DNA of 64,000 bases from a virus (IMGVR_UViG_3300042940_001739); one strand, 5' to 3'. Shown: positions 25,299-44,509, numbered from the stretch's first letter. The notes: generated by a model not told the origin, from the sequence alone. Translations and numbers: made by a program.

Positions 25299-26447
25299 AT
25301 GAATAACAAAAGATTTGGTACCATCACCGTAGATGGAAAAGTAATTGAAGTTGGAACAGGTAAGGACATTACCGGATTGTTCCGCAAAATTATGATTGAT
25401 AATGCAATCAGAGATGGGCAAGCATTATCATTCGACTTAGACAGTCAAATGGCCCGTAGAATTCCATTATCAGATATTCCTGATACGAACACAGCTCCGA
25501 AAGTTGAAGCTCCAAAGAATGTTGATCCAATATTTGCATTGATCAATAGTGCAAAAGATATTAAGCCAGCAGATCTGGAAATGTCTGACATTAAATGGAA
25601 GTATCTAGTTCGTTCAGCATTGCGTGGTAAAAATATCATGATGGTAGGACCTGCAGGATGTGGTAAGACACAAGCAGCAAAGGCATTGCCTGAGGCAACT
25701 AAAAGACCATTCTTCTATTTCAATTTAGGTGCAACTCAAGATCCAAGATCAACCCTTATTGGTAACACTCACTTTAAAGACGGACAAACCACATTTGATG
25801 AGTCAGCTTTTGTAAAAGCAATCCAAACAGAAAACGCAGTTGTGTTGCTAGATGAGTTATCACGAGCACACCCGGAAGCATGGAACATCTTAATGACTGT
25901 GCTAGATGAGGGACAACGTTACTTGCGCTTAGATGAGGATGTTAATGCACCTACAATCAAAGTAGCATCAGGAGTATCATTTATTGCAACAGCAAACATT
26001 GGTACCGAGTATACATCGACACGTGTATTAGACCGTGCATTAATGGATCGATTCGAAATCATTGAGGTTGATATCCTTAGCAAAGACCGTGAACAGGCAT
26101 TGTTAACTCTCCGTTATGGTAAAACGATCCCGGCAGATTTAATTCACGCAGTAGCAGACATTGCAGACTCGACTCGTAAAGAATGGAGATCAGAAGAAGG
26201 CAAACTTACCACAATGATATCAACTCGTATGACAGTTAGAGTATGTGAGTTGTTAGCAGATGGGTTCACATTGAATGAAGCTGCGGAAGTAGCAATTGTT
26301 CCTTTCTTTGATGCATCAGGAGGATCTGACTCAGAAAGAACCTTTGTGAAACAAATTATTCAAAAACATATGGCTACGGCCGAAAAAGATATTTTCAATA
26401 CCGGTGAGGTAGAAACGGATACAACTCCTGAATCCTTCCCATTTTAA
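25299..26447 (+). CDS. AAA+ ATPase, MoxR/CobS-like (AAA_5)
   Basis: Walker A MMVGPAGCGKT and Walker B VVLLDELSRA. Paired with a downstream vWA protein, as in phage CobS/CobT pairs. Confidence 0.6.
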   Translation: MNNKRFGTITVDGKVIEVGTGKDITGLFRKIMIDNAIRDGQALSFDLDSQMARRIPLSDIPDTNTAPKVEAPKNVDPIFALINSAKDIKPADLEMSDIKWKYLVRSALRGKNIMMVGPAGCGKTQAAKALPEATKRPFFYFNLGATQDPRSTLIGNTHFKDGQTTFDESAFVKAIQTENAVVLLDELSRAHPEAWNILMTVLDEGQRYLRLDEDVNAPTIKVASGVSFIATANIGTEYTSTRVLDRALMDRFEIIEVDILSKDREQALLTLRYGKTIPADLIHAVADIADSTRKEWRSEEGKLTTMISTRMTVRVCELLADGFTLNEAAEVAIVPFFDASGGSDSERTFVKQIIQKHMATAEKDIFNTGEVETDTTPESFPF

Positions 26448-29264: not shown

Positions 29265-30892
<1,628 letters not shown>

Positions 30893-30893
<1 letters not shown>

Positions 30894-31393: not shown

Positions 31394-31840
31394 ATGAAAA
31401 ACAAAGTTATATTCGATCTAGACGGCACATTAGCTTTGATCGACGAAAGAAGAGCGTTAGCCGCAAAACCAGACGGCAAAATCAATTGGAAAACATTCTT
31501 TGCGCCAGAAAATATTGCATTAGACAAACCCAATGAACCAGTTATTGAAATGTTTAAATGCTTAGCTGATCGTGGATTTGAAATGATTATTTTGTCAGGA
31601 CGTGATGCAATTAGTCGTACAGAGACTAGAGCATGGTTGAAAGAACAAGGCATCTTCCCAGACATATTATGGATGCGCCCACAAGGATCATTTACACCGG
31701 ATAATGAATTAAAGCAAACTTGGTTAGGTGAGATTGGTGTAGACAATGTATTCTGTGTATTCGATGACCGAGATAAAGTAGTACAAATGTGGAGAGACAA
31801 CGGATTAACTTGTTTCCAAGTAGCTCCGGGTAATTTCTAA
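31394..31840 (+). CDS. HAD-family phosphatase (polynucleotide 3'-phosphatase-like)
   Basis: VIFDLDGTL (HAD motif I), ILSGR (motif II) and VFDDRD (motif IV), similar to the T4 Pnkp phosphatase domain. Confidence 0.55.
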   Translation: MKNKVIFDLDGTLALIDERRALAAKPDGKINWKTFFAPENIALDKPNEPVIEMFKCLADRGFEMIILSGRDAISRTETRAWLKEQGIFPDILWMRPQGSFTPDNELKQTWLGEIGVDNVFCVFDDRDKVVQMWRDNGLTCFQVAPGNF

Positions 31841-31843
31841 ACA

Positions 31844-32257
31844 ATGAAACAGTTAATTTTATTACGAGGTTTACCAGGTAGTGGTAAGAGTACTTCAGCT
31901 AAATTGTTAGGTGCCGGTGGCGCAGGTTATGCTCATTTCGAATCTGATATGTTTTTCATGGAAGATGGCAAGTATAAGTTTGATGCAACCAAATTGCGTG
32001 AAGCTCATCAGTGGTGCCAAAATGAAGTTGAACATGCAATGTTGTTGAACCATACATCTGGACACAATAGCACAATCATTGTATCAAATACATTTACTCA
32101 GGAATGGGAAATGCAGGCATACTTTGATATGGCAGATCGTTGGGACTATCGAGTAACAACGTTGATTGTAGAGAACCGCCATGGCGGCGAGAATGTACAC
32201 GGAGTACCAGCTGACAAGTTAGAACAAATGAAAAATAGATTCGAAATTAAATTATAG
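31844..32257 (+). CDS. P-loop polynucleotide 5'-kinase-like protein
   Basis: Walker A LLRGLPGSGKST. Placed between the HAD phosphatase and the RNA ligase. Confidence 0.5.
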   Translation: MKQLILLRGLPGSGKSTSAKLLGAGGAGYAHFESDMFFMEDGKYKFDATKLREAHQWCQNEVEHAMLLNHTSGHNSTIIVSNTFTQEWEMQAYFDMADRWDYRVTTLIVENRHGGENVHGVPADKLEQMKNRFEIKL

Positions 32258-32259
32258 AT

Positions 32260-33408
32260 ATGGAAAATAACAACAGCGTATGTTACGTAGGAGTCGTAAC
32301 AGAAGTAAAAGCAATTGAAGGTGCTGACAACATTGAATTAGGTGTTGTAGGCGGATGGAATGCTATCATCAAGAAAGGTGAATACTCAGTAGGCGATTAT
32401 GTTGTAGTTGCAACTACCGATGCAGTTATCCCAAAAGAAATTTCCGATTCAATTGGAGTAACCAATTATTTGCGAAAAGGACAACGTGTAAGAACAGTTA
32501 AGCTTCGCGGTGTATATAGTGAATGCTTGATCATTCCATTTGACAGCTTGCCTCAAATGAAAACAATGTATGCTACGGGTATTGGGTATTATTGGAAAGA
32601 GGGTGAAGATTTAATGAACCTTTTAGGTATTCATAAGTATGAGCCGCCAGTAGTTCAAATTCAATTAGCATCAGGTCGTAAATTCAAATATCATCAGAAT
32701 CCAAACTTCGGAGTGTATTATAAATTCCCTAACTTGAAAAATGTATCAGGGATGTTTACAGAGGAAGATCATGTTGAAATTACTCGTAAATTGCATGGTA
32801 CGAATGCTCGTTATGGAATTGTTCGTAAGAATAAATTATCATTGTTTGACAAAGTAAAACGATTCTTTGGTAATAAGTGGGTTGGATACGAATATGTATA
32901 TGGTTCACATAATGTTGAAAAAGGATCTGACTCGCAAGGTTTCTATGATACAGATGTTTGGAGAACGGTAGCTGAGAAAGAGAATATCAAAAATGTACTT
33001 TGGGAATATGCTCGCGAGTTAACTCCTGAGGAAATTGGATCTGGTGTAGTTCTATACGGAGAAATTTATGGTGCTGGTATTCAAAAGAATTATGATTATG
33101 GTTTAACGGATATTAGATTTGCTGGTTTTGATTTAGTTATAAACGGTAGATATCAGCCTGTTATTTCAAGTCGATTGACAATCAAACATGTACTTCAATT
33201 ACCATATGTAGAAGTATTACATAAAGGTTTGTGGTCACAAGAAATCCAAGATAGCTTTGTATTCAACAACTTCATTGAAGGAACTAAAGTACCACACGAA
33301 GGAATCGTAATCAAACATATCAGTGGAGAACGAAACAAAGTAGCTAAGGTAATCAATCCAGATTATTTAATCTACGGAGAAAAACATAACGTAGGAGATT
33401 CACACTAA
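32260..33408 (+). CDS. Putative ATP-dependent RNA ligase (nucleotidyltransferase superfamily) with N-terminal OB-like domain
   Basis: K-x-(D/H)-G-type motif TRKLHGTNARYG. N-terminal tRNA-binding-like OB segment VVTEVKAIEGADNIELGVVGG. Context: after phosphatase and kinase. Confidence 0.45.
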   Translation: MENNNSVCYVGVVTEVKAIEGADNIELGVVGGWNAIIKKGEYSVGDYVVVATTDAVIPKEISDSIGVTNYLRKGQRVRTVKLRGVYSECLIIPFDSLPQMKTMYATGIGYYWKEGEDLMNLLGIHKYEPPVVQIQLASGRKFKYHQNPNFGVYYKFPNLKNVSGMFTEEDHVEITRKLHGTNARYGIVRKNKLSLFDKVKRFFGNKWVGYEYVYGSHNVEKGSDSQGFYDTDVWRTVAEKENIKNVLWEYARELTPEEIGSGVVLYGEIYGAGIQKNYDYGLTDIRFAGFDLVINGRYQPVISSRLTIKHVLQLPYVEVLHKGLWSQEIQDSFVFNNFIEGTKVPHEGIVIKHISGERNKVAKVINPDYLIYGEKHNVGDSH

Positions 33409-33713
33409 TGCTAGCACGAACTAAAATAGGAAGCTTTAGAGCAACTTGGGTGTTGAGACACCGATGGGAACTAAACTCTGATTCTATGATATCAAACTAT
33501 GAAGCTAATAACATTAAAACGAATTGGCAATTAGGAGTTTGGGTAAAGAAATATCAGGTAGTTGGTAGAGTTAGACGAGGTAGTGATCGCGATACAACGA
33601 TAAAGAAAACCTTTAACAGTAGCAATCATGTTAACTGCTACATGATAGGATTAAATTTAATTGTTGCTAAAGTTTGGGTTGAGTTTAAATTCAACCCAAC
33701 CTTTGGATTTTAA
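33408..33713 (+). CDS. Doubtful ORF (odd composition), contains strong hairpin
   Basis: ORF-track only. The 3' end is a 14-bp hairpin. Confidence 0.15.
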   Translation: MLARTKIGSFRATWVLRHRWELNSDSMISNYEANNIKTNWQLGVWVKKYQVVGRVRRGSDRDTTIKKTFNSSNHVNCYMIGLNLIVAKVWVEFKFNPTFGF

Positions 33714-33716
33714 TAA
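33670..33716 (+). terminator. Strong hairpin (aaagtttgggttga-gtttaaat-tcaacccaaccttt) followed by a T-run
   Basis: ~14-bp stem with one mismatch, then ggatttt. Confidence 0.4.
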
Positions 33717-33856
33717 GGAACTGATGAACAAAGAACAAGCAAAAGACCAATTGATTGAATTATTAATGAATCAAGTAGTAGACTTAACATTGATGTCTAA
33801 GATAGAATTAGGCGATGATGTAATTGAAGAAATACGAAGACTGAAAGGTATTATCA

Positions 33857-34834
33857 ATGAGTAACATAGAACATGATTATCTTAGACTCCTTAAGGATAT
33901 CCTAGACAACGGAGTCAAGAAAGAAGATCGAACAGGTACTGGAACAATCTCAGTATTTGGAAGACAAATTAGACACAAGATGTCTGAAGGTTTCCCTTTA
34001 CTGACTACTAAGAAGATGCCTTTCAATTTAATTGCAACGGAATTGATTTGGTTTTTGATGGGGGACACGAACATCAAGTTCCTTGTTGATAACAATTGTC
34101 ACATTTGGGATGGTGATGCATATAAGAACTATTGTGTATCTTACAAAGACGGTCACGAGTTTTATGAAGATGAAGAAGTAAAACGTTCATACACACAAGA
34201 AGAATTTATCAACAAAATCAAAACAGATGATGAGTTTGCTAAGAAGTGGGGTGATTTAGGTCCTGTGTATGGGAAACAATGGAGAGAATGGAATTGCTAT
34301 AAATGGGATAAGATTGATTTCGATACTCGAATAGAATACACTGACCAAATCGCAAACCTAATCGATGATCTTAAAACAAACCCTGATAGTAGAAGACTAA
34401 TGGTTACTGCCTGGAATCCTGCAGAATTAGACCAAATGACACTTCCTCCTTGTCATTATGGGTTTCAATGCTATGTCAGAGATGGTAAGTACCTCTCTTT
34501 AATGTGGAATCAAAGATCAGTTGATACATTCTTAGGTTTACCATTCAATATAGCATCTTACGGTTTGTTATTAGAAATGATTGCTCGAGAAGTTAATATG
34601 ATCCCTGATGAATTAATTGGAAATTTAGGCGATGTACATTTATATTCAAATCATATTGAACAAGCTCGGGAACAGATTACAAGAGAGCCATTGAGATTAC
34701 CTACATTAAAAATGAGTTCAGGTCACAATTTTAGAGCAGCATTGAAAGCTAACAAAGATGAGATTGATTTGAATGATTTTATTCTGTTAAATTATAATGC
34801 TCACTCACATATTAAAGCACCTTTAAGTAATTGA
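33857..34834 (+). CDS. thyA: Thymidylate synthase (ThyA)
   Basis: EDRTGTGTISVFG, GDLGPVYGKQWR and LPPCHYGFQCYV (catalytic Cys) motifs. Confidence 0.85.
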   Translation: MSNIEHDYLRLLKDILDNGVKKEDRTGTGTISVFGRQIRHKMSEGFPLLTTKKMPFNLIATELIWFLMGDTNIKFLVDNNCHIWDGDAYKNYCVSYKDGHEFYEDEEVKRSYTQEEFINKIKTDDEFAKKWGDLGPVYGKQWREWNCYKWDKIDFDTRIEYTDQIANLIDDLKTNPDSRRLMVTAWNPAELDQMTLPPCHYGFQCYVRDGKYLSLMWNQRSVDTFLGLPFNIASYGLLLEMIAREVNMIPDELIGNLGDVHLYSNHIEQAREQITREPLRLPTLKMSSGHNFRAALKANKDEIDLNDFILLNYNAHSHIKAPLSN

Positions 34835-34845
34835 TATTTATTAAT

Positions 34846-36897
34846 ATGAAACATATACTATTAGCATTAACATTAATGCAATCCATCTTCAGCTACACGC
34901 AGTGTGTAGGAGTACAGTCAGCAACAATTACACCGCCAGCTCCTGCAGGAGGCTATCTACCAAACACTCAAGTAACTGTGTGTTACACGATGGTAGGTTG
35001 GCCTGGATTAAGTGTTGGTGCCAATTGGTTGGAAGGATTTTCTATTACTGCAGGCCCAGGCTGGAATGCACCACAACCAGTTACCGCACCAGCAGATTGT
35101 AATGGGGGAACAACCACAGGATGGTTATGGATGAACTCAGTTACTTCAACAGCAACGGGACAGACTGCAGGGCCAGGATATTTTTATGAAGGACCTACCG
35201 GGCCACAAGACAACAACCCAGGCAATGATTGGGGAGATCAAGGCAATTGTACTTGGACTATGTGTTTCTCAGTTACAACGAAGCAATCATGTTTACCACT
35301 TAACCTCAACCTAGCAGTAACAGCAGGAGCAGATGGAACGTGGGGTTCGTGGTCTAATTCAAGTTGCCCAACAACACCTTACTCAGTATACACAGGAACA
35401 CTCAATGTACCAATCGTAACGGTTGCTAGCACAGTAAAGAAAGACACATGTGGTTTAGGATTAGGATCAATACTAGTAGTACCTAGTTCAACAACATATA
35501 CTGGACCATATACCTATACATGGACTCCTAATGTAGGAAACACAGCATTCATAGGAGGTTTAACGGCAGGAACATACTCAGTTCAAATTGGATATAACAA
35601 CGGATGCATTAAGTCAGCAACATATGTAGTAGGCAATGTTCAACCAACGTATGCAGCAACATCAACCGTTGTATCATGTTATGGAGATGCAACAGGCACA
35701 GCTACCGCAACAATGACACCACCAATTGGAAACATATCTTATAATTGGTCAAACACACAAACAACGCAAACTGCAACGGGACTAGCAGCAGGACCATATA
35801 CATGTACTATTAGCAATACATTGGGATGTACTAGCACAGTACCAGTAACTATAACACAGAACCCTCAACTGCTAATACAGAACTTGTCATTGACTAATGC
35901 AACCTGCGCAGATTCAGATGCTATAATTACATATAACGCAGTAGGAGGCGTCTCTCCTTATCAATATGCACTTAACGGTGTAGGTTCAACAAATAATGAA
36001 GATTCATTAGCAGGAGGCAACTATATTATATATGTACAAGACAATCTAGGATGCAACACTGATAGCACAGTAACATTGTTATCACCAACCGTTATTACTC
36101 CTAGCATTTCTCCTAATGTAACATTGCAATGTACTCCAGGGACATTTATATTTACAAACACATCGACTCCAGCAGTTAACATAGACAGTACTATAGTAAA
36201 TTGGGGTGATGGCAACATAGACACAACCACAACGTACGCACCTATACAGCACGTATACAACACGCCGGGACTTTGGGATATCATTGTATCAACGATTTCT
36301 GATTATGGTTGTGTGTATAGCGATACATTGTATACGTTGGTTGAAACAACTCAGCCGCCAACGGCTCAATTTACTATACAACCTAACCCAACTACTGTAT
36401 ATAATACACACGTGACTTGCGATGATTGGTCGTCAGGAGTGCCTGTGCAATGGTATTGGTCAGCTCCAGGTGCTATACCGATGTCAAGCACACAACTTGA
36501 GCCATGGTTCATGTTCCCAGAAGTAGCCGGCGAACATTACATTACTTTGACAGTAACAGATGCTTATGGTTGTTGGGACACAATAACACACAAGTTCATT
36601 ATAGAAGATGCCATGTTGATATTCGTCCCTAATACATTTACTCCGGGTGGAGCAGATGAATGGAACAATGTATTTCGATGGTCGATACTAGGAATCAATG
36701 AATCAGAATTCTATATGGAAATTTGGAATCGTTGGGGACAAATAATCTGGGAGTCACGAGACCCACACTCATATTGGGATGGAACATGTAATGGGCAACT
36801 AGTACCTGATGGTTCATACAGCTGGGTTATACGAGCAACTAATAAATTAGATGCAGGTAAAAGATCTTTTATAGGAACAATTAACGTTATAAAATAA
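34846..36897 (+). CDS. Secreted repeat-rich protein with T9SS type-B (gliding-motility-associated) C-terminal domain
   Basis: Signal peptide MKHILLALTLMQSIFSYTQ. C-terminus FVPNTFTPGGADEWNNVF...MEIWNRWGQIIWESRD...WDGTCNGQLVPDGSYSWVIRA matches the CHU_C / type-B CTD. Class III motif abuts the ATG. Confidence 0.65.
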   Translation: MKHILLALTLMQSIFSYTQCVGVQSATITPPAPAGGYLPNTQVTVCYTMVGWPGLSVGANWLEGFSITAGPGWNAPQPVTAPADCNGGTTTGWLWMNSVTSTATGQTAGPGYFYEGPTGPQDNNPGNDWGDQGNCTWTMCFSVTTKQSCLPLNLNLAVTAGADGTWGSWSNSSCPTTPYSVYTGTLNVPIVTVASTVKKDTCGLGLGSILVVPSSTTYTGPYTYTWTPNVGNTAFIGGLTAGTYSVQIGYNNGCIKSATYVVGNVQPTYAATSTVVSCYGDATGTATATMTPPIGNISYNWSNTQTTQTATGLAAGPYTCTISNTLGCTSTVPVTITQNPQLLIQNLSLTNATCADSDAIITYNAVGGVSPYQYALNGVGSTNNEDSLAGGNYIIYVQDNLGCNTDSTVTLLSPTVITPSISPNVTLQCTPGTFIFTNTSTPAVNIDSTIVNWGDGNIDTTTTYAPIQHVYNTPGLWDIIVSTISDYGCVYSDTLYTLVETTQPPTAQFTIQPNPTTVYNTHVTCDDWSSGVPVQWYWSAPGAIPMSSTQLEPWFMFPEVAGEHYITLTVTDAYGCWDTITHKFIIEDAMLIFVPNTFTPGGADEWNNVFRWSILGINESEFYMEIWNRWGQIIWESRDPHSYWDGTCNGQLVPDGSYSWVIRATNKLDAGKRSFIGTINVIK

Positions 36898-36901
36898 AAA
36901 T

Positions 36902-37324
36902 ATGGAAGCATTAAATACACACCCAATCAAAAAAAGTGACCTAGGTTTTCACGGCAATCTATTCGGAGGTAAACTCTTATCATGGATAGATGCTTCCGCC
37001 GCAGGATACGCTATGCAATTGTGTGATACGCCCCGTATGGTGACAGTATCAATTGATCAATGCAACTTCGAACGTCCAGCAAAAGAATCTCAATTGCTAA
37101 AGATATATGGAGAGCCTGTTAGGGTAGGTAACACATCAGTAACATTATATATGGAAGCACGTGCGCATAATGTATATACCGGCAAACAAGATCTTGTATT
37201 AAAAACTAATACTACATTTGTTCAGATTGATGAAGGAGGCAATGCAATACCTTTAGGTGAAAAGGCAAAAGAGCGTATACGCAATCTTTTATTAGAAAAA
37301 TCTAAGGGAGAACTTGGAAAGTAA
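36902..37324 (+). CDS. Acyl-CoA thioesterase, hot-dog fold (YciA-like)
   Basis: HGNLFGGKLLSWIDASAAGYA...VTVSIDQCNFERPAK pattern. Confidence 0.6.
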   Translation: MEALNTHPIKKSDLGFHGNLFGGKLLSWIDASAAGYAMQLCDTPRMVTVSIDQCNFERPAKESQLLKIYGEPVRVGNTSVTLYMEARAHNVYTGKQDLVLKTNTTFVQIDEGGNAIPLGEKAKERIRNLLLEKSKGELGK

Positions 37325-37358
37325 TTGATTTTTCTTTATAATATATAAAAATAAAGAG

Positions 37359-37511
37359 ATGGAAATTATTAAATTGATTAACGACACATGGCAATTGATT
37401 GACGAACAAGGATCAGTATTAAAACAAGGTACTTGGGATGACTGTTCAGATCGATTATGTGAAATTGAAAATGAACAATACCGAGACTTTTTATTGATGA
37501 CTGGTATTTAA
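37359..37511 (+). CDS. Small hypothetical protein (50 aa) immediately upstream of the tRNA cluster
   Basis: ATG preceded by the class II motif tttctttataatatataaaaataaagag. Stop 3 nt before the first tRNA. Confidence 0.3.
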   Translation: MEIIKLINDTWQLIDEQGSVLKQGTWDDCSDRLCEIENEQYRDFLLMTGI

Positions 37512-37514
37512 TAT

Positions 37515-37596
37515 GCCTAGGTGTTGGAATTGGTAGACATAACGGTCTTAGAAACCGTGGCTGAAAAGCGTGAGAGTTCGAGTCTCTCCCAAGGTA
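37515..37596 (+). tRNA. tRNA-Leu (anticodon TAG), type II with long variable arm
   Basis: GGAATTGGTAGAC D-loop; anticodon stem ACGGT/ACCGT with loop CTTAGAA; T-arm GAGAG-TTCGAGT-CTCTC. One acceptor mismatch (5:68). Confidence 0.55.
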
Positions 37597-37648
37597 CACA
37601 GACAGTAACGGTAGCGCGTACGCAAGGTTTAAACGCCGTTACTAGCAT

Positions 37649-37720
37649 GTTCCGTTAGTGAAGCGGTCAACACGCTGCACTTTCACGGCAGAGGCACGGG
37701 TTCGATTCCCGTACGGAATA
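37649..37720 (+). tRNA. tRNA-Glu (anticodon TTC), tentative
   Basis: Cloverleaf by hand: acceptor GTTCCGT/ACGGAAT, T-arm ACGGG-TTCGATT-CCCGT, anticodon loop CTTTCAC. 31:39 mismatch. Confidence 0.4.
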
Positions 37721-37725
37721 CATAT

Positions 37726-37798
37726 TGCGGGGTGGAGAAGATGGTATTCTCGGCGGGCTCATAACCCGAGGACGCAGGTTCGAATCCTGTCCCCGCTA
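37726..37798 (+). tRNA. tRNA-Met, initiator type (anticodon CAT)
   Basis: Close to the E. coli tRNA-fMet pattern: GCGGGGTGGAG..., anticodon stem with three G:C pairs (CGGGCTCATAACCCG), unpaired 1:72, T-arm GCAGG-TTCGAAT-CCTGT. Confidence 0.6.
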
Positions 37799-37862
37799 CT
37801 AGAGCGATCCACCGTGCGCTATATAAAAAAGGTTGCGTTGGCAATGTTACACGGTGGACGAT

Positions 37863-37946
37863 GCCCGGGTGGTGGAATAGGTAGACACGCCGGACTTAAA
37901 ATCCTGTGCCTGTATGGGCGTGCGGGTTCAAGTCCCGCCCCGGGTA
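37863..37946 (+). tRNA. tRNA-Leu (anticodon TAA), type II
   Basis: GCCCGGGTGGTGGAATAGGTAGACAC...CTTAAAA...GCGGGTTCAAGTCCCGCCCCGGGTA, near-identical architecture to E. coli leuZ. Confidence 0.65.
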
Positions 37947-38071
37947 CAAAGAGAAGTGGCAAGCTGTAGTAATAATTAGGAGCCTAAACCGCGAAAAAGG
38001 GTTAATAGTAGCGAATCCGGAGGCATTGTTATTACCAGTAACCCCGAAAGACCCGAAGCTTCTCTTTATTT

Positions 38072-38145
38072 GGTCTTTTAACTCAGTTGGTTAGAGTAGC
38101 TCGCTCATAACGAGAAAGTCCCAGGTTCGAGTCCTGGATGGACCA
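38072..38145 (+). tRNA. tRNA-Met (elongator) or tRNA-Ile2 (anticodon CAT)
   Basis: TAACTCAGTTGGTTAGAGTA D-arm, loop CTCATAA, T-arm CCAGG-TTCGAGT-CCTGG. Acceptor has one mismatch. Confidence 0.5.
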
Positions 38146-38182
38146 CAAAATATATAATTAATTAAATAAAAAGTTAAATAGT

Positions 38183-39503: not shown

Positions 39504-40244
39504 ATGAAGATTACATTGATAAGCGATACACATACAAAGCATCGTAATATTGGTACTGCAAAAGATTATCGCAAAAATAATCAGCCGTTGGATTTGCCTG
39601 GTGGCGACATATTGATTCATGCCGGCGACTTTATGAACTCAGGTTATAATCCGATGGAAGCGATGGAGTTCTTTAAGTGGTTTGATGAAATAGACAATTA
39701 TGATACAAAAATATTCATTGCCGGCAATCATGATCGTTGGATGCAAGATGCGTCGGAAGAAGCACGAGGCATCTTAACGGGATATAAGACCATTGAATAT
39801 TTGCAAGATGAAGATCTTGTTTTGTACTTTGATGGACCAAATGGAGATCATCCAGAAGATAATGTTCGCATCTATGGTTCACCTTGGCAACCGGAATTCT
39901 TCAATTGGGCATTTAATTTGCCTCGCAATGGAGAAGAATTGAAAGCACGTTGGGATGAAATTCCAGAACGCACAGACATTTTAGTAACACATGGACCTCC
40001 CTTTGGTTACCAAGATATTCCAGGTGGACAAAGTATACGAGTTGGATGTGAAATGTTGCGTTATCGAATAGATGAAATTAAACCAAAAATCCACGTGTTT
40101 GGACATGTTCATGGTGGTTATGGTCACTATTACAACGGTCATACACATTTCTTCAATGCTTCAGTATTAGACGAAAGATATAGTTATACAAACCTTCCAT
40201 TCACATTCGAATGGAACCAAACAACAAATGAAATAACATGGTAG
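39504..40244 (+). CDS. Calcineurin-like metallophosphoesterase
   Basis: ISDTH, GDFMN and GNHD motifs. Class II motif upstream. Confidence 0.65.
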   Translation: MKITLISDTHTKHRNIGTAKDYRKNNQPLDLPGGDILIHAGDFMNSGYNPMEAMEFFKWFDEIDNYDTKIFIAGNHDRWMQDASEEARGILTGYKTIEYLQDEDLVLYFDGPNGDHPEDNVRIYGSPWQPEFFNWAFNLPRNGEELKARWDEIPERTDILVTHGPPFGYQDIPGGQSIRVGCEMLRYRIDEIKPKIHVFGHVHGGYGHYYNGHTHFFNASVLDERYSYTNLPFTFEWNQTTNEITW

Positions 40245-40588
40245 GCGGAGTAAACCCTAAAATATTAGTAACAATGGATGAAAACGGAAATTTAAAGTTA
40301 GATGAATCAATGGAATCATTATTTAATCCAAAGCCCAAATGGAAACTAGTTCGAGAGCGTGATGGAATAACTAAACAATCAGATTCTATCAAATGGTTAG
40401 AATGGAATGAAGAAGGCCGATTTAAAGCATCTCACGATGAACCTGCAATTGGTTTTTCATTGCTAATGAGTCCATTCAATGATGCGTTTACTTGGCAGAC
40501 AACGGATATAACTGAAATTGTTGAACAGCGTGATGGATACATTAAATTCCATACAAAGAATAGTACATACGAATTATTTAAGCTATGA
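40238..40588 (+). CDS. Hypothetical protein
   Basis: ORF only. Confidence 0.3.
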   Translation: MVGGVNPKILVTMDENGNLKLDESMESLFNPKPKWKLVRERDGITKQSDSIKWLEWNEEGRFKASHDEPAIGFSLLMSPFNDAFTWQTTDITEIVEQRDGYIKFHTKNSTYELFKL

Positions 40589-41154
40589 TAGAGAAAATAA
40601 GACTTTGGTGGAAGTTCGATGGACGATACATGCACAAACAGTTTGCTCGTGGAGTAAAGAACTTATGGAGATGGTTTCCGACTATTTGGAAAGATCGAGA
40701 TTGGGATGGACACTACATCTATGAATTGATCCGTAAGAAGTTAGAATTTCAAGCTGAATTTATTGGCGGTAGAGATATTCATACTGATGCAAAGCGTGAT
40801 GCTGAGAGAATGAGACTTGTAGCTCGACTGATAAAACTACAGCAAGAAGAAACCTACGGAATGGAGTATATGGATTATCATGATCAAGACGTCAATTGGA
40901 TTGATATTGATGATCGCCCAGGATATGTTGAAGCAGTGTTCGATGAAAAGTCAGAAAGGTTTGATGAGTTCTTTGCAAAGTACCCTAGACAGTATAAGCG
41001 AGTAGCTAATGGTGAAATCAATCGATACCGTCGCGAGTTTGCTGATAAAGATAAACAATTGATTGCTATGGAGATTGCTCATGAGAATCAAGCACGTTGT
41101 CAGAAGTTATTGTTCAGCATCATGCATGATCATATTGAAAGATGGTGGGATTAA
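40585..41154 (+). CDS. Hypothetical protein
   Basis: ORF only. ATGA overlap. Confidence 0.3.
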   Translation: MIEKIRLWWKFDGRYMHKQFARGVKNLWRWFPTIWKDRDWDGHYIYELIRKKLEFQAEFIGGRDIHTDAKRDAERMRLVARLIKLQQEETYGMEYMDYHDQDVNWIDIDDRPGYVEAVFDEKSERFDEFFAKYPRQYKRVANGEINRYRREFADKDKQLIAMEIAHENQARCQKLLFSIMHDHIERWWD

Positions 41155-43088: not shown

Positions 43089-43718
43089 ATGATTAACAAT
43101 ATAAAACAAATAAAACCGTTACTGAACTTTTCGAAGCCAGGCGACTTTTATATGCTTTATGTTTTTAAGCGTAAGAAAGATCAACCCGAAGGCGAGCGAG
43201 ACAATCATCAATCAGTAAGAACTATTAAAACTTATTGTATTGAAAGTATTGACCATCTAGAACGTCGTTATGATGAGGTAATGGAACTATGTGAGATGTT
43301 TAAGGCTCGTGCTTATATCCATGTACAGAAACAAAATCATTTTGATGTTAGTTTGAATATGATGGTTGCACTTGCTCAACGCATTCAAGATGGCAACATG
43401 AAGCAACAAGGTTTATTTGATTCTGTTGTAGGTCAAATTAAGACACAAGAGAAACGTTGGGTAATTGATATTGACAATGTTTCGATAGATGCCTTTGCTC
43501 ACGCTCCATACTATATTCAGATGAGATTATATATTGATGAACTACAAGAGGAAGCTGGCGTAGATCAAACTAAGACATTCATAAAAACTAATTCTGGTTT
43601 TCATATCATTACGCAACCTTTCAATACAAAGAAGTTTGCCGAAAGATATCCAGATGTTGATATACAAAAGAAGAACCCGACACTATTATATTACCCAAAT
43701 AGTTTAACAAACAAATAA
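43089..43718 (+). CDS. Hypothetical protein
   Basis: Class II motif upstream. Confidence 0.3.
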   Translation: MINNIKQIKPLLNFSKPGDFYMLYVFKRKKDQPEGERDNHQSVRTIKTYCIESIDHLERRYDEVMELCEMFKARAYIHVQKQNHFDVSLNMMVALAQRIQDGNMKQQGLFDSVVGQIKTQEKRWVIDIDNVSIDAFAHAPYYIQMRLYIDELQEEAGVDQTKTFIKTNSGFHIITQPFNTKKFAERYPDVDIQKKNPTLLYYPNSLTNK

Positions 43719-43987: not shown

Positions 43988-44509
43988 ATGAGTATAGTAC
44001 GATTCATAGCAGACCTTCACTTGGGTCACAAGTTTATGGCAACACATCGAGGTTTCGCAAGTGTGGAAGAACATGATGAACACATCATCACACAATGGAA
44101 CTCAGTTGTACACAAACGTGATACTACATACATATTAGGAGATGTCACTATGGAAAAGGCTGAACAATATGCATTGTTAGATCGACTCAATGGCGCCAAA
44201 CGAGTAGTGTTAGGCAACCACGACTTACCAAAACATGTTCCTAAACTATTAGAGCACGTTCAATCTGTATCCGGTATGGAGAAGTATAAAGGTATATTCC
44301 TGACACACTGCCCTATCCACACAATGGAATTGGAACACAGAGTAAGTCGCAACATACACGGACACATTCACTCAGCACTTGTTATGTACCCGGTAAGATT
44401 ATTTGGTATTAAACTATTTGATCGAGTAGATCGTCGTTACCATTGTGTTTCTTGTGAGCATGTAGACTTCATTCCAAGAACTTTAAAAGAATTAGGAATT
44501 GAACGGTAA
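43988..44509 (+). CDS. Calcineurin-like metallophosphoesterase (Ser/Thr phosphatase-like)
   Basis: ADLHLGH, GDV and GNHD motifs. Confidence 0.6.
   Translation: MSIVRFIADLHLGHKFMATHRGFASVEEHDEHIITQWNSVVHKRDTTYILGDVTMEKAEQYALLDRLNGAKRVVLGNHDLPKHVPKLLEHVQSVSGMEKYKGIFLTHCPIHTMELEHRVSRNIHGHIHSALVMYPVRLFGIKLFDRVDRRYHCVSCEHVDFIPRTLKELGIER

What the first reader, a model, noticed from the sequence alone, without database searches (positions are those of the whole stretch)
31394..38145. tRNA-repair trio (HAD 3'-phosphatase, P-loop 5'-kinase, RNA ligase) encoded 4 kb from a five-tRNA cluster
The order phosphatase (DLDGTL), kinase (GLPGSGKST) and ligase (KxHG nucleotidyl-transfer motif with N-terminal OB domain) reproduces the T4 Pnkp + Rnl1 healing-and-sealing pathway, which counters host anticodon nucleases such as PrrC. 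The phage also carries its own Leu, Glu and Met tRNAs. Together these suggest the host deploys tRNA-targeting abortive-infection nucleases and the phage both repairs and replaces tRNAs. The ligase has His in place of the usual Asp in motif I (KLHGTN), an unusual variant worth checking.
Basis: partly seen in the sequence, partly recalled or inferred. Interest (0 to 1): 0.6.

Follow-up and report, generated by a model that had tools for sequence, protein, structure and literature searches.

The report
Phage RNA-break repair gene trio
A large phage of a Bacteroidota host carries three back-to-back genes (a 3'-phosphatase, a 5'-kinase and an RNA ligase) that together can mend cut RNA; this is a recognisable variant of the classic T4 repair pathway, not a new kind of system.

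Summary
Three abutting + strand genes encode a T4-Pnkp-type HAD 3'-phosphatase (31394-31840), a small P-loop kinase (31844-32257) and an ATP-dependent RNA ligase (32260-33408). Five tRNA genes lie 4.1 kb downstream.

- **Ligase family:** it is not Rnl1-like. It has the Rnl5 (DraRnl/NgrRnl) architecture, with an N-terminal OB domain, an adenylyltransferase domain and no C-terminal domain. Its active-site motifs resemble T4 Rnl2, a nick-sealing ligase.
- **Motif I:** KLHGTN is not unusual. T4 Rnl2 has EKIHGTNF, and 111 of 111 diverse family members have K-x-H-G.

In 80 related viral contigs the kinase lies within 8 kb of the ligase in 62. The phosphatase does so in only 6. In four cultured phage lineages the same kinase family sits next to Rnl1-type ligases, with metallophosphoesterases beside it or nearby. 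tRNA arrays are often close by.

The module is best read as an RNA end-healing and sealing system. tRNA as the target is plausible but unproven. This is a new member of a known kind.

The parts
31394..31840 (+). Standalone HAD-family polynucleotide 3'-phosphatase (probably also a 2',3'-cyclic phosphodiesterase) of the T4 Pnkp C-terminal-domain type, 148 aa
   Evidence: PF25109 HAD_PNKP at E 2.5e-29. Matches phrog_415 and phrog_505 'polynucleotide kinase' at E 1e-36 to 7e-38. Best solved relatives are the C-terminal domains of C. gingivalis Pnkp1 (4xrp) and T4 Pnkp (1ltq, 5uj0), aligned to the very C-terminus. T4 residues D165, D167, T169, S211, R213, D254, K258, D277 and D278 align with D8, D10, T12, S68, R70, D103, K107, D124 and D125; R176 aligns with K33. 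Roles of these residues are taken from PMC3592404.
31844..32257 (+). Small P-loop polynucleotide 5'-OH kinase candidate (137 aa), in a family distinct from the T4 Pnk kinase domain
32260..33408 (+). ATP-dependent RNA ligase with Rnl5 architecture (N-terminal OB domain about residues 1-132, adenylyltransferase domain about 150-382, no C-terminal domain) and Rnl2-like motifs
   Evidence: PF21189 plus PF09414. TIGR02306 (DRB0094) scores 94 bits, below its cut-off of 151. The family profile hits NgrRnl at E 5.5e-20. Residues aligned to NgrRnl are D54/D53, K126/K121, E268/E227, F290/F248 and E347/E312. Residues aligned to T4 Rnl2 are K177/K35, H179/H37, E268/E99, D291/D120, E347/E204 and K363/K225. 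The protein ends 19 residues after motif V.
33486..33713 (+). Small ORF of unknown function directly after the ligase, with a weak terminator-like hairpin (4 G-C pairs, T-poor tail) at 33674-33699. This may be the end of the operon.
   Evidence: Called as a 75-aa gene on the source contigs. It follows the ligase in L011/L092 and L094 and matches no Pfam or PHROG family.
37515..38146 (+). Cluster of five tRNA genes (Leu-TAG, Glu-TTC, Met-CAT, Leu-TAA, Met-CAT). It is a neighbour of the module; a functional link is not shown.
   Evidence: ARAGORN and Rfam RF00005 at 44-63 bits. Relatives carry arrays of up to 22 tRNAs within 8 kb of the ligase.
43988..44509 (+). Small metallophosphoesterase (173 aa). 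Possible additional 3'-end healing enzyme; tentative part.
   Evidence: phrog_547 at E 2e-43. It is 29-33% identical to the phosphoesterase encoded next to the kinase homolog in Vibrio phage Ceto and E. coli phage LL12, and about 1.4 kb from it in Pseudomonas phage Pyxpy02. It lies within 8 kb of the ligase in 15 of 80 relatives.
39504..40244 (+). Calcineurin-like metallophosphoesterase (246 aa). Tentative part.
   Evidence: PF00149 at E 1.6e-16. It weakly matches the phosphoesterase portion of phrog_8238, a 737-position family annotated 'RNA ligase' whose N-terminal part also matches the window's kinase. It lies within 8 kb of the ligase in 23 of 80 relatives.

Best explanation
The three genes form one co-directional, almost gap-free unit that encodes an RNA end-healing and end-sealing pathway.

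**Proposed mechanism.** Host or rival ribonucleases that cut by transesterification leave a 2',3'-cyclic phosphate (or 3'-phosphate) and a 5'-OH.
1. The HAD enzyme uses Asp8 as nucleophile and Asp10 as acid-base to remove the phosphate and give a 3'-OH.
2. The P-loop kinase uses Lys15/Ser16 to hold NTP and Asp35 as general base to put a phosphate on the 5'-OH.
3. The ligase is adenylylated on Lys177, transfers AMP to the 5'-phosphate, and joins it to the 3'-OH.

Because the ligase has the Rnl5/Rnl2 nick-sealing design, the break it seals is most likely held in a duplex-like context. Examples are a stem of a tRNA or rRNA, or two halves of a cut tRNA kept together by the rest of the fold.

**Shown here.** Family assignments, conservation of catalytic residues, the kinase fold, and conserved kinase-ligase linkage.

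**Inferred.** The enzyme activities, the order of steps, RNA as substrate, and the role as a counter-defence.
For: - **Phosphatase.** HAD_PNKP at E 2.5e-29, and all T4 Pnkp phosphatase catalytic residues are kept. In T4 this domain alone converts RNA 2',3'-cyclic phosphate to 3'-OH (PMC3592404).
- **Kinase.** The best PDB sequence hits and the best structural matches are polynucleotide or tRNA-end kinases. The catalytic Asp35 is invariant in 142 family members.
- **Ligase.** Rnl5 OB domain plus an adenylyltransferase domain with the catalytic Lys, Glu, Phe, Glu and Lys.
- **Linkage within the lineage.** The kinase is within 8 kb of the ligase in 62 of 80 relatives, far more than any other window gene; the next highest count is 30. 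HAD-kinase-ligase are abutting, as in the window, in L094. In L091, L005 and L011/L092 the same order holds with a 0.8-1.4 kb insert before the ligase.
- **Linkage in cultured phages.** The same kinase family (44-48% identity) sits next to a ~300-aa ligase in four lineages: Pyxpy02, phiA009, LL12 and Ceto. Pfam confirms the ligase as Rnl1-type in LL12 and Pyxpy02. A metallophosphoesterase is adjacent to the kinase in LL12 and Ceto and about 1.4 kb away in Pyxpy02. The kinase thus recurs with non-homologous ligases and phosphoesterases, as expected for a repair partner.
- **5'-OH ends.** A dedicated 5'-kinase implies 5'-OH ends, which are typical of RNase cuts (established knowledge).
Against: - No activity was measured.
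- The kinase lacks counterparts of T4 Arg38, Glu57 and Arg126, so its acceptor site differs from T4 Pnk.
- The ligase scores below the TIGR02306 equivalog cut-off. No ligase with K-x-H-G plus an Rnl5-type OB domain has been characterised, to my knowledge.
- The phosphatase is near the ligase in only 6 of 80 relatives, so the 'trio' is a feature of a sub-lineage.
- The physiological substrates of Rnl5 and Rnl2 ligases are unknown, and DraRnl is implicated in radiation survival (PMC5397189).
Confidence: 0.7

Rival explanations
1. One reading: a tRNA anticodon-loop repair system equivalent to T4 Pnkp plus Rnl1. It would be aimed at host anticodon nucleases (PrrC, RloC or VapC-like) and work together with the phage tRNA genes, which replace depleted tRNAs.
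For: - The healing enzymes are as in T4.
- tRNA genes are 4.1 kb away.
- 34 of 80 relatives have tRNA genes within the fetched flanks, and 21 of them have at least 5.
- In E. coli phage LL12 the kinase, phosphoesterase and Rnl1-type ligase lie 3.5 kb from a tRNA array.
- A review of jumbo phages already links phage tRNAs, RNA ligases, polynucleotide kinases and HAD phosphatases to defence against RNases (PMC7824862).
Against: - The ligase is not Rnl1 or Rnl4, the families described as tailored to stem-loop breaks. It has the Rnl5/Rnl2 nick-sealing design (PMC4408790).
- The related loci share ancestry, so proximity to tRNAs may simply be inherited gene order.
- thyA, a secreted adhesin-like gene and a thioesterase lie between the trio and the tRNAs.
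- The host and its nucleases are unknown.
Confidence: 0.3
2. A DNA, or RNA-DNA hybrid, nick-repair module. The phosphatase and kinase would clean 3'-phosphate and 5'-OH ends in DNA, and the ligase would seal nicks whose 3' end is ribonucleotide. This is the role proposed for DraRnl in radiation-damaged Deinococcus.
For: - The only physiological evidence for an Rnl5 ligase is radiation survival in Deinococcus, and the authors leave open whether Rnl5 and Rnl2 ligases repair DNA, RNA or both (PMC5397189).
- T4 Pnkp-type enzymes also act on DNA ends (established knowledge).
- The trio sits in a nucleotide-metabolism neighbourhood next to thyA.
- In another phage lineage a standalone HAD_PNKP gene lies 1.7 kb from an Fpg/Nei glycosylase gene; that enzyme class leaves 3'-phosphates.
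Against: - The same kinase family pairs with Rnl1-type RNA ligases in cultured phages.
- It lies near tRNA arrays.
- 5'-OH ends are far more typical of RNA cleavage than of DNA damage.
Confidence: 0.15
3. Unrelated metabolic enzymes that are adjacent by chance: a nucleotide or nucleoside kinase and a sugar or nucleotide phosphatase serving dNTP metabolism beside thyA, with only the ligase acting on RNA.
For: - Automatic names given by sources to close kinase homologs include adenylate kinase, uridine kinase and NMP kinase.
- Weak NCBIfam hits include adenylate kinase, far below its cut-off.
- thyA lies 450 nt downstream of the ligase.
Against: - The HAD protein matches the Pnkp-specific Pfam model four-fold above its cut-off, while generic HAD models fall below theirs.
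- The kinase-ligase linkage is seen in 62 of 80 relatives and in unrelated cultured phages.
Confidence: 0.03

Closest known systems
Bacteriophage T4 Pnkp (pseT) with T4 RNA ligases Rnl1 and Rnl2
   Same: - The same three chemistries are present.
- The HAD phosphatase is homologous to the Pnkp C-terminal domain, with all catalytic residues kept.
- The kinase fold is closest to the T4 Pnk domain.
- Ligase motifs I and III closely resemble those of T4 Rnl2: EKIHGTNF and GEFAGPGIQKNVDY in T4 against RKLHGTNA and GEIYGAGIQKNYDY here.
   Different: - In T4 the kinase and phosphatase are one polypeptide, kinase first. Here they are two genes, phosphatase first, so this is not a frameshift-split pnkp.
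- The kinase belongs to a different family (phrog_2071). It is only 20-23% identical to T4 Pnk and lacks R38, E57 and R126.
- The ligase lacks the Rnl2 C-terminal domain and the Rnl1 fold, and has an N-terminal OB domain instead.
Rnl5 family: Deinococcus radiodurans DraRnl and Naegleria gruberi NgrRnl
   Same: - The domain organisation matches: an N-terminal OB domain plus an adenylyltransferase domain, with no C-terminal appendage.
- The OB domain aligns with NgrRnl at E 1e-15, including counterparts of D53 and K121, which hold the ATP gamma-phosphate and metal (PMC7261155).
- Homologs in phages of Aeromonas, Caulobacter, Mycobacterium and Sinorhizobium are already reported (PMC4408790).
   Different: - Motif I is KLHG, not KLDG. 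In NgrRnl, D172A is tolerated.
- The adenylyltransferase domain matches NgrRnl only weakly (12 bits).
- The TIGR02306 score is below its cut-off.
- Here the ligase is tightly linked to a Pnk-type kinase. DraRnl is instead co-operonic with a DEDDh-like exonuclease gene.
Bacterial Pnkp-type repair systems (Clostridium thermocellum Pnkp/Hen1; Capnocytophaga gingivalis Pnkp1-Rnl-Hen1)
   Same: - These also combine a kinase, a phosphoesterase and a ligase as a heal-and-seal set.
- Pnkp1 (4xrp) is the best solved match to the HAD protein (E 7e-14) and is among the top matches to the kinase.
- It comes from a Bacteroidota organism, as the host here probably is.
   Different: - No Hen1 methyltransferase was seen among the genes annotated around the trio; the rest of the window was not scanned.
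- The ligase here is of a different family.
- The proteins are separate and small, not multidomain.
Kinase-phosphoesterase-Rnl1-type ligase clusters of cultured phages (Vequintavirus LL12, Vibrio phage Ceto, Pseudomonas phage Pyxpy02, Aeromonas phage phiA009)
   Same: - The same kinase family is present at 44-48% identity.
- A homolog of their small phosphoesterase is also encoded in the window at 43988-44509.
- LL12 has a tRNA array 3.5 kb away.
   Different: - Their ligase is a ~300-aa protein: PF09511 Rnl1-type in LL12 and Pyxpy02, and annotated as RNA ligase 1 / tail attachment protein in Ceto and phiA009.
- Where a 3'-end enzyme was seen near the kinase (LL12, Ceto, Pyxpy02) it is a metallophosphoesterase, not a HAD protein.

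Membership tests
T4 Pnkp-type HAD polynucleotide 3'-phosphatase (PF25109) | Profile match above the curated cut-off | tested here: met
   102.7 bits against a cut-off of 27.6, covering 3-143 of 143 profile positions
T4 Pnkp-type HAD polynucleotide 3'-phosphatase (PF25109) | DxDxT motif with the Asp nucleophile and Asp acid-base, plus the Ser/Lys phosphate contacts and the Mg-binding Asp-Asp | tested here: met
   D8, D10, T12, S68, K107, D124 and D125 align with T4 D165, D167, T169, S211, K258, D277 and D278. Roles are from PMC3592404.
T4 Pnkp-type HAD polynucleotide 3'-phosphatase (PF25109) | Fusion to an N-terminal kinase domain, as in T4 Pnkp | tested here: not met
   It is a standalone 148-aa protein, and the kinase gene lies downstream rather than upstream. 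Standalone forms exist in other phages.
T4 Pnkp-type HAD polynucleotide 3'-phosphatase (PF25109) | 3'-phosphatase and 2',3'-cyclic phosphodiesterase activity on polynucleotides | not testable with these tools
   Needs an enzyme assay
Polynucleotide 5'-OH kinase (T4 Pnk / CthPnk clade of P-loop kinases) | Walker A P-loop GxxxxGK(S/T) | tested here: met
   G9-L-P-G-S-G-K15-S16; K15 is invariant in 142 family members
Polynucleotide 5'-OH kinase (T4 Pnk / CthPnk clade of P-loop kinases) | General-base Asp that contacts the 5'-OH (T4 Asp35) | tested here: met
   D35 aligns with T4 D35 and is invariant. Its role is from PMC2831316.
Polynucleotide 5'-OH kinase (T4 Pnk / CthPnk clade of P-loop kinases) | Arg38-Glu57 salt-bridge network that binds the acceptor's 3'-phosphate | tested here: not met
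   The aligned residues are F38 and L51. The acceptor site must be built differently.
Polynucleotide 5'-OH kinase (T4 Pnk / CthPnk clade of P-loop kinases) | Lid arginines, and the Val-Pro pocket for the 5' nucleoside (T4 R122, R126, V131, P132) | tested here: inconclusive
   R112, V121 and P122 align with R122, V131 and P132 and are 96-98% conserved. R126 aligns with a variable position. This is a sequence alignment only.
Polynucleotide 5'-OH kinase (T4 Pnk / CthPnk clade of P-loop kinases) | Fold closest to known polynucleotide kinases rather than nucleotide kinases | tested here: met
Rnl5 RNA ligases (DraRnl/NgrRnl) | Signature N-terminal OB domain homologous to that of NgrRnl | tested here: met
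   PF21189 at E 7e-13. NgrRnl residues 11-128 align at E 1e-15, with D53 and K121 counterparts D54 and K126.
Rnl5 RNA ligases (DraRnl/NgrRnl) | Adenylyltransferase domain with the motif I Lys, motif III Glu, motif IIIa Phe, motif IV Glu and motif V Lys | tested here: met
   K177, E268, F290, E347 and K363. E268, F290 and E347 align with NgrRnl E227, F248 and E312. K177 and K363 were placed through T4 Rnl2 K35 and K225 and correspond by motif to NgrRnl K170 and K326, whose essential roles are described in PMC7261155.
Rnl5 RNA ligases (DraRnl/NgrRnl) | No C-terminal domain after the adenylyltransferase domain | tested here: met
   The protein ends 19 residues after the motif V Lys363
Rnl5 RNA ligases (DraRnl/NgrRnl) | Score above the NCBIfam equivalog cut-off for TIGR02306 (DRB0094 family) | tested here: not met
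   94.2 bits against a cut-off of 151.15. It is a divergent subfamily with K-x-H-G in place of KLDG.
Rnl5 RNA ligases (DraRnl/NgrRnl) | Sealing of 3'-OH(RNA)/5'-PO4 nicks in duplexes | not testable with these tools
   Needs an enzyme assay
Rnl1 (T4 RNA ligase 1, tRNA anticodon-loop repair) | Match to the Rnl1 adenylyltransferase family (PF09511) and the Rnl1 C-terminal tRNA-specificity domain | tested here: not met
   No PF09511 hit at E up to 0.01. The ligases next to kinase homologs in LL12 and Pyxpy02 do match PF09511.
Rnl2 (T4 RNA ligase 2 / trypanosome REL1) | Motif I of the EKIHGTNF type and an Rnl2-like motif III | tested here: met
   RKLHGTNA and GEIYGAGIQKNYDY here against EKIHGTNF and GEFAGPGIQKNVDY in T4
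Rnl2 (T4 RNA ligase 2 / trypanosome REL1) | Rnl2 C-terminal domain, and a TIGR02307 score above its cut-off | tested here: not met
   TIGR02307 scores 19.9 bits against a cut-off of 197. There is no sequence after motif V to form a C-terminal domain.

The most novel reading that the evidence does not exclude
Two linked readings remain open.
- The small kinase family (phrog_2071, mostly annotated 'ATPase' or 'AAA domain protein') may be a widespread, dedicated RNA 5'-OH kinase. It would combine interchangeably with different ligases (Rnl5-like here, Rnl1-like elsewhere) and different phosphoesterases (HAD or metallophosphoesterase), close to phage tRNA arrays.
- Its tight linkage to the Rnl5-like ligase may mean that the long-unknown physiological job of phage nick-sealing RNA ligases is repair of RNase-cut structured RNA (tRNA or rRNA stems) during infection, rather than DNA repair.
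Probability: 0.3. Interest if true: 0.55.

Novelty: new member of a known kind. Interest (0 to 1): 0.3.

Why it matters
Phage heal-and-seal RNA repair is a textbook counter-defence, and large phages are already known to combine tRNAs, ligases, kinases and HAD phosphatases (PMC7824862). The trio itself is therefore expected.

What it adds is context for an open question. The physiological substrates of Rnl5 and Rnl2 nick-sealing ligases are still unknown (PMC5397189). Here an Rnl5-architecture ligase is persistently linked to a polynucleotide-kinase-like gene, in 62 of 80 environmental relatives. That argues for substrates with 5'-OH ends, which are RNase products.

It also suggests that many phage genes annotated only as 'ATPase' are end-healing kinases.

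Tried and rejected
- **Single-sequence AlphaFold2 of the kinase.** It gave pLDDT 42 and was discarded. A 142-sequence alignment was needed.
- **Near-identity DNA search in cultured phages.** Only thyA matched, in Flavobacterium phage immuto, so no annotated close relative exists there.
- **hhalign of the ligase family against T4 Rnl2.** It aligned only motifs III-IIIa. The other motif correspondences come from a 112-sequence MAFFT alignment.
- **phmmer of the single kinase sequence against the PDB.** It was inconclusive (E about 0.05-0.3). Profiles were needed.
- **Pakpunavirus (Zigelbrucke) ligase homolog.** No kinase or phosphatase is annotated next to it, so the linkage may not be universal.
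- **Sigma-70 promoter scan.** The count matched shuffled sequence (33 against 32.3), and terminators were 6 against 4.6. It is uninformative, and Bacteroidota promoters differ anyway.
- **The 124-nt spacer between tRNAs.** It folds with z = -2.0 only, which is not notable.
- **Burroughs and Aravind 2016 (RNA repair systems).** The paper is not held in the library.
- **Frameshift-split pnkp.** I considered this and rejected it. The gene order (phosphatase then kinase) is opposite to the T4 domain order, and the kinase belongs to another family.

Full report
**What is there.** The window is AT-rich (about 35-40% G+C here) and almost entirely coded on the + strand. Three ORFs abut each other at 31394-31840 (148 aa), 31844-32257 (137 aa) and 32260-33408 (382 aa), with gaps of 3 and 2 nt. 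Independent gene callers on the source metagenome contigs call the same three genes. The identical ligase protein occurs on at least 15 contigs from ENA, JGI and Logan assemblies, the longest 164 kb. Upstream lie a MoxR-like AAA protein and GroEL. Downstream lie thyA, a SprB-repeat/PKD/CHU_C (type IX secretion) protein, a 4HBT thioesterase, five tRNA genes at 37515-38146, and two metallophosphoesterases. The type IX secretion signal points to a Bacteroidota host. The only cultured-phage DNA match is thyA of a Flavobacterium phage. The stated observation is therefore correct in every positional detail.

**The phosphatase.** The 148-aa protein matches Pfam HAD_PNKP end to end (E 2.5e-29, 102.7 bits against a cut-off of 27.6). 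Generic HAD models fall below their cut-offs. Its best solved relatives are the C-terminal phosphatase domains of Capnocytophaga gingivalis Pnkp1 and T4 Pnkp, aligned right to the shared C-terminal ...QVAxGxF. An alignment with T4 Pnkp, translated from NC_000866, places D8, D10, T12, S68, R70, D103, K107, D124 and D125 opposite T4 D165, D167, T169, S211, R213, D254, K258, D277 and D278. These include the nucleophile, the acid-base, the phosphate contacts and the Mg ligand defined for T4 (PMC3592404). The same paper shows that the T4 domain alone converts an RNA 2',3'-cyclic phosphate to a 3'-OH. The 'sugar phosphatase' alternative is not supported.

**The kinase.**
- **Sequence searches.** The single sequence gives only AAA_33 and weak PDB hits. 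A family profile ranks polynucleotide and tRNA-end kinases first among 177,635 PDB sequences: T4 Pnk (E 1.7e-5), a Mucorales tRNA-ligase-type kinase, Pnkp1, PSTK and, further down, CthPnk.
- **Active site.** K15, S16, D35 (the general base), T83, R112, V121 and P122 align with T4 K15, S16, D35, T86, R122, V131 and P132 and are 96-100% conserved. T4 R38, E57 and R126 have no counterpart (roles from PMC2831316).
- **Conclusion.** This is a polynucleotide-kinase-like enzyme of a separate family (phrog_2071, E 2.6e-40) with a differently built acceptor site.

**The ligase.**
- **N-terminal domain.** Pfam finds the PHA02142 OB-fold domain at residues 12-93 and the RNA_ligase adenylyltransferase domain at 171-365. 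The best solved relative is Naegleria NgrRnl, the structural prototype of Rnl5 (E 5.5e-20 with a family profile). The OB domain aligns well, including D54 and K126 opposite NgrRnl D53 and K121, which hold the ATP gamma-phosphate and second metal (PMC7261155).
- **Adenylyltransferase domain.** It aligns weakly with NgrRnl but keeps E268, F290 and E347 opposite E227, F248 and E312. A 112-sequence alignment with T4 Rnl2 pairs K177, H179, E268, D291, E347 and K363 with K35, H37, E99, D120, E204 and K225.
- **C-terminus.** The protein stops 19 residues after motif V, so it has neither the Rnl2 nor the Rnl1 C-terminal domain. It does not match PF09511 (Rnl1).
- **Cut-offs.** It scores below the equivalog cut-offs of both TIGR02306 (94 against 151) and TIGR02307 (20 against 197).
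- **Conclusion.** This is a divergent sub-family with Rnl5 architecture and Rnl2-like motifs. It is very large in metagenomes: 6,554 cluster representatives at E up to 0.001.

**The 'unusual' His.** NgrRnl motif I is KLDG (PMC4408790), so His does differ from the Rnl5 prototype and from DNA ligases. However, T4 Rnl2 reads EKIHGTNF. All 111 sequences examined (110 representatives of 50%-identity clusters plus the query) have K-x-H-G, and the commonest octamer, EKIHGTNF, is identical to T4 Rnl2. In NgrRnl the corresponding D172A change is tolerated. The His is the family norm.

**Is the trio a unit?**
- **Linkage counts.** I fetched 80 of 268 related viral contigs (67-80% ligase identity) and asked which window genes recur within 8 kb of the ligase. 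The kinase does so in 62 of 80 loci. It is upstream on the same strand in 61 and abuts the ligase in 19. Half of the 18 loci without it have less than 3 kb of upstream sequence. The next most frequent genes reach only 30, 23 and 20. The HAD phosphatase is found in 6.
- **Close HAD relatives.** Among 41 HAD relatives, those with at least 65% identity mostly have the kinase next to the HAD gene, 7 nt downstream in six loci. One (L094) has HAD-kinase-ligase abutting as in the window. L091, L005 and L011/L092 keep the same order with a 0.8-1.4 kb insert before the ligase.
- **Conclusion.** Kinase-ligase is the conserved core, and the HAD gene is an addition in the window's sub-lineage.
- **Other candidate 3'-end enzymes.** One is the 246-aa metallophosphoesterase at 39504-40244, found in 23 of 80 relatives. 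The other is the 173-aa one at 43988-44509 (phrog_547). It is homologous to the phosphoesterase encoded beside the kinase homolog in cultured phages.

**Independent support from cultured phages.** Kinase homologs of 44-48% identity occur in 626 phage records.
- In Pseudomonas phage Pyxpy02 and Aeromonas phage phiA009 the kinase overlaps the end of a ~300-aa ligase gene.
- In E. coli phage LL12 (Vequintavirus) the arrangement is ligase, then kinase and metallophosphoesterase, with a tRNA array 3.5 kb away.
- In Vibrio phage Ceto (Demerecviridae) the order is ligase, a small ORF, kinase, phosphoesterase.
- The LL12 and Pyxpy02 ligases match PF09511, the Rnl1 family. Those of Ceto and phiA009 are annotated as RNA ligase 1 / tail attachment protein.

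One kinase family thus recurs with non-homologous ligases and phosphoesterases. This is the strongest contextual argument that it is the 5' end-healing partner. Some GenBank records already call it a putative polynucleotide kinase.

**tRNAs.** The five tRNAs are genuine. Of the 80 relatives, 34 have confident tRNA genes in the fetched flanks and 21 have five or more, with arrays of up to 22. The position of the array relative to the ligase varies. These phages are related, so the counts are not independent. In the window, thyA, a secreted protein gene and a thioesterase lie between the trio and the tRNAs. The association is suggestive and not demonstrated. The host and its nucleases are unknown, so the anticodon-nuclease scenario could not be tested.

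- Whether the target is tRNA is uncertain (about 0.3). The literature describes Rnl1 and Rnl4 ligases as tailored to stem-loop breaks, and Rnl2 and Rnl5 ligases as sealing duplex nicks (PMC4408790). The physiological substrates of Rnl2 and Rnl5 remain open (PMC5397189).
- A DNA or RNA-DNA nick-repair role is a minor rival (0.15).
- The 'unrelated metabolic enzymes' reading is essentially excluded (0.03).

**Novelty.** Phage Pnkp plus ligase repair is classical. Rnl5 homologs in phages are reported, and a jumbo-phage survey already describes tRNAs, RNA ligases, polynucleotide kinases and HAD phosphatases as a counter-RNase toolkit (PMC7824862). The particulars here are modest variations: separate genes in phosphatase-kinase order, a non-T4 kinase family, and an Rnl5-architecture ligase with Rnl2-like motifs. 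I rate it a new member of a known kind, with interest 0.3. The most useful by-product is the consistent kinase-ligase linkage, which favours RNase-type breaks as the natural substrate of these nick-sealing ligases.

Noticed in passing
window 43988-44509 (+) and 39504-40244 (+): Two metallophosphoesterases lie downstream of the tRNAs. The 173-aa one (phrog_547, E 2e-43) is 29-33% identical to the phosphoesterase encoded next to (Ceto, LL12) or near (Pyxpy02) the kinase homolog in cultured phages. The 246-aa one weakly matches part of phrog_8238, a long family annotated 'RNA ligase' whose N-terminal part also matches the window's kinase. The phage may have redundant 3'-end healing enzymes.
   Followed up: partly
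window 37726-37799 and 38072-38146 (+): The two tRNAs with anticodon CAT look different in kind. By eye, the first has initiator hallmarks: a U-U mismatch at 1:72 and three G-C pairs at the base of the anticodon stem. The second resembles tRNA-Ile2 (CAU, lysidine) or an elongator Met.
   Followed up: no
window 34831-36897 (+): A phage-encoded 688-aa protein has SprB repeats, a PKD domain and a CHU_C type IX secretion sorting signal. It sits between thyA and a 4HBT thioesterase. It suggests a Bacteroidota host and a phage protein exported through the host's type IX secretion system.
   Followed up: no
window 25299-26447, 29268-30893 (+): The phage encodes a full-length GroEL (541 aa) and a MoxR-like AAA ATPase. 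A ClpS-like gene lies further upstream on the source contig.
   Followed up: no
window 33857-34834 (+): The thymidylate synthase is 325 aa against a 266-position Pfam model, so it carries roughly 60 extra residues. The thyA matches in relatives vary between about 700 and 1350 nt, which hints at variable inserts.
   Followed up: no
L102:5992-6450 and L102:8165-8998: In a different lineage of 100-180 kb viral contigs, a standalone HAD_PNKP phosphatase has no kinase or ligase homolog within 6 kb. In the one locus annotated (L102) it lies 1.7 kb from an Fpg/Nei-type DNA glycosylase gene and 2.2 kb from two tRNAs. A DNA 3'-phosphate clean-up role is possible there.
   Followed up: partly
window 40585-41154 (+) and 43089-43718 (+): Two ORFs of unknown function (189 aa with no family match; 209 aa in phrog_14949) are the genes most often found near the ligase after the kinase, in 30 and 20 of 80 relatives. 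They might belong to the same functional neighbourhood.
   Followed up: no
window 37948-38071 (+): The 124-nt spacer between tRNA-Leu(TAA) and the last tRNA folds into a long imperfect hairpin (-29.8 kcal/mol, z = -2.0). This is not clearly above chance.
   Followed up: yes
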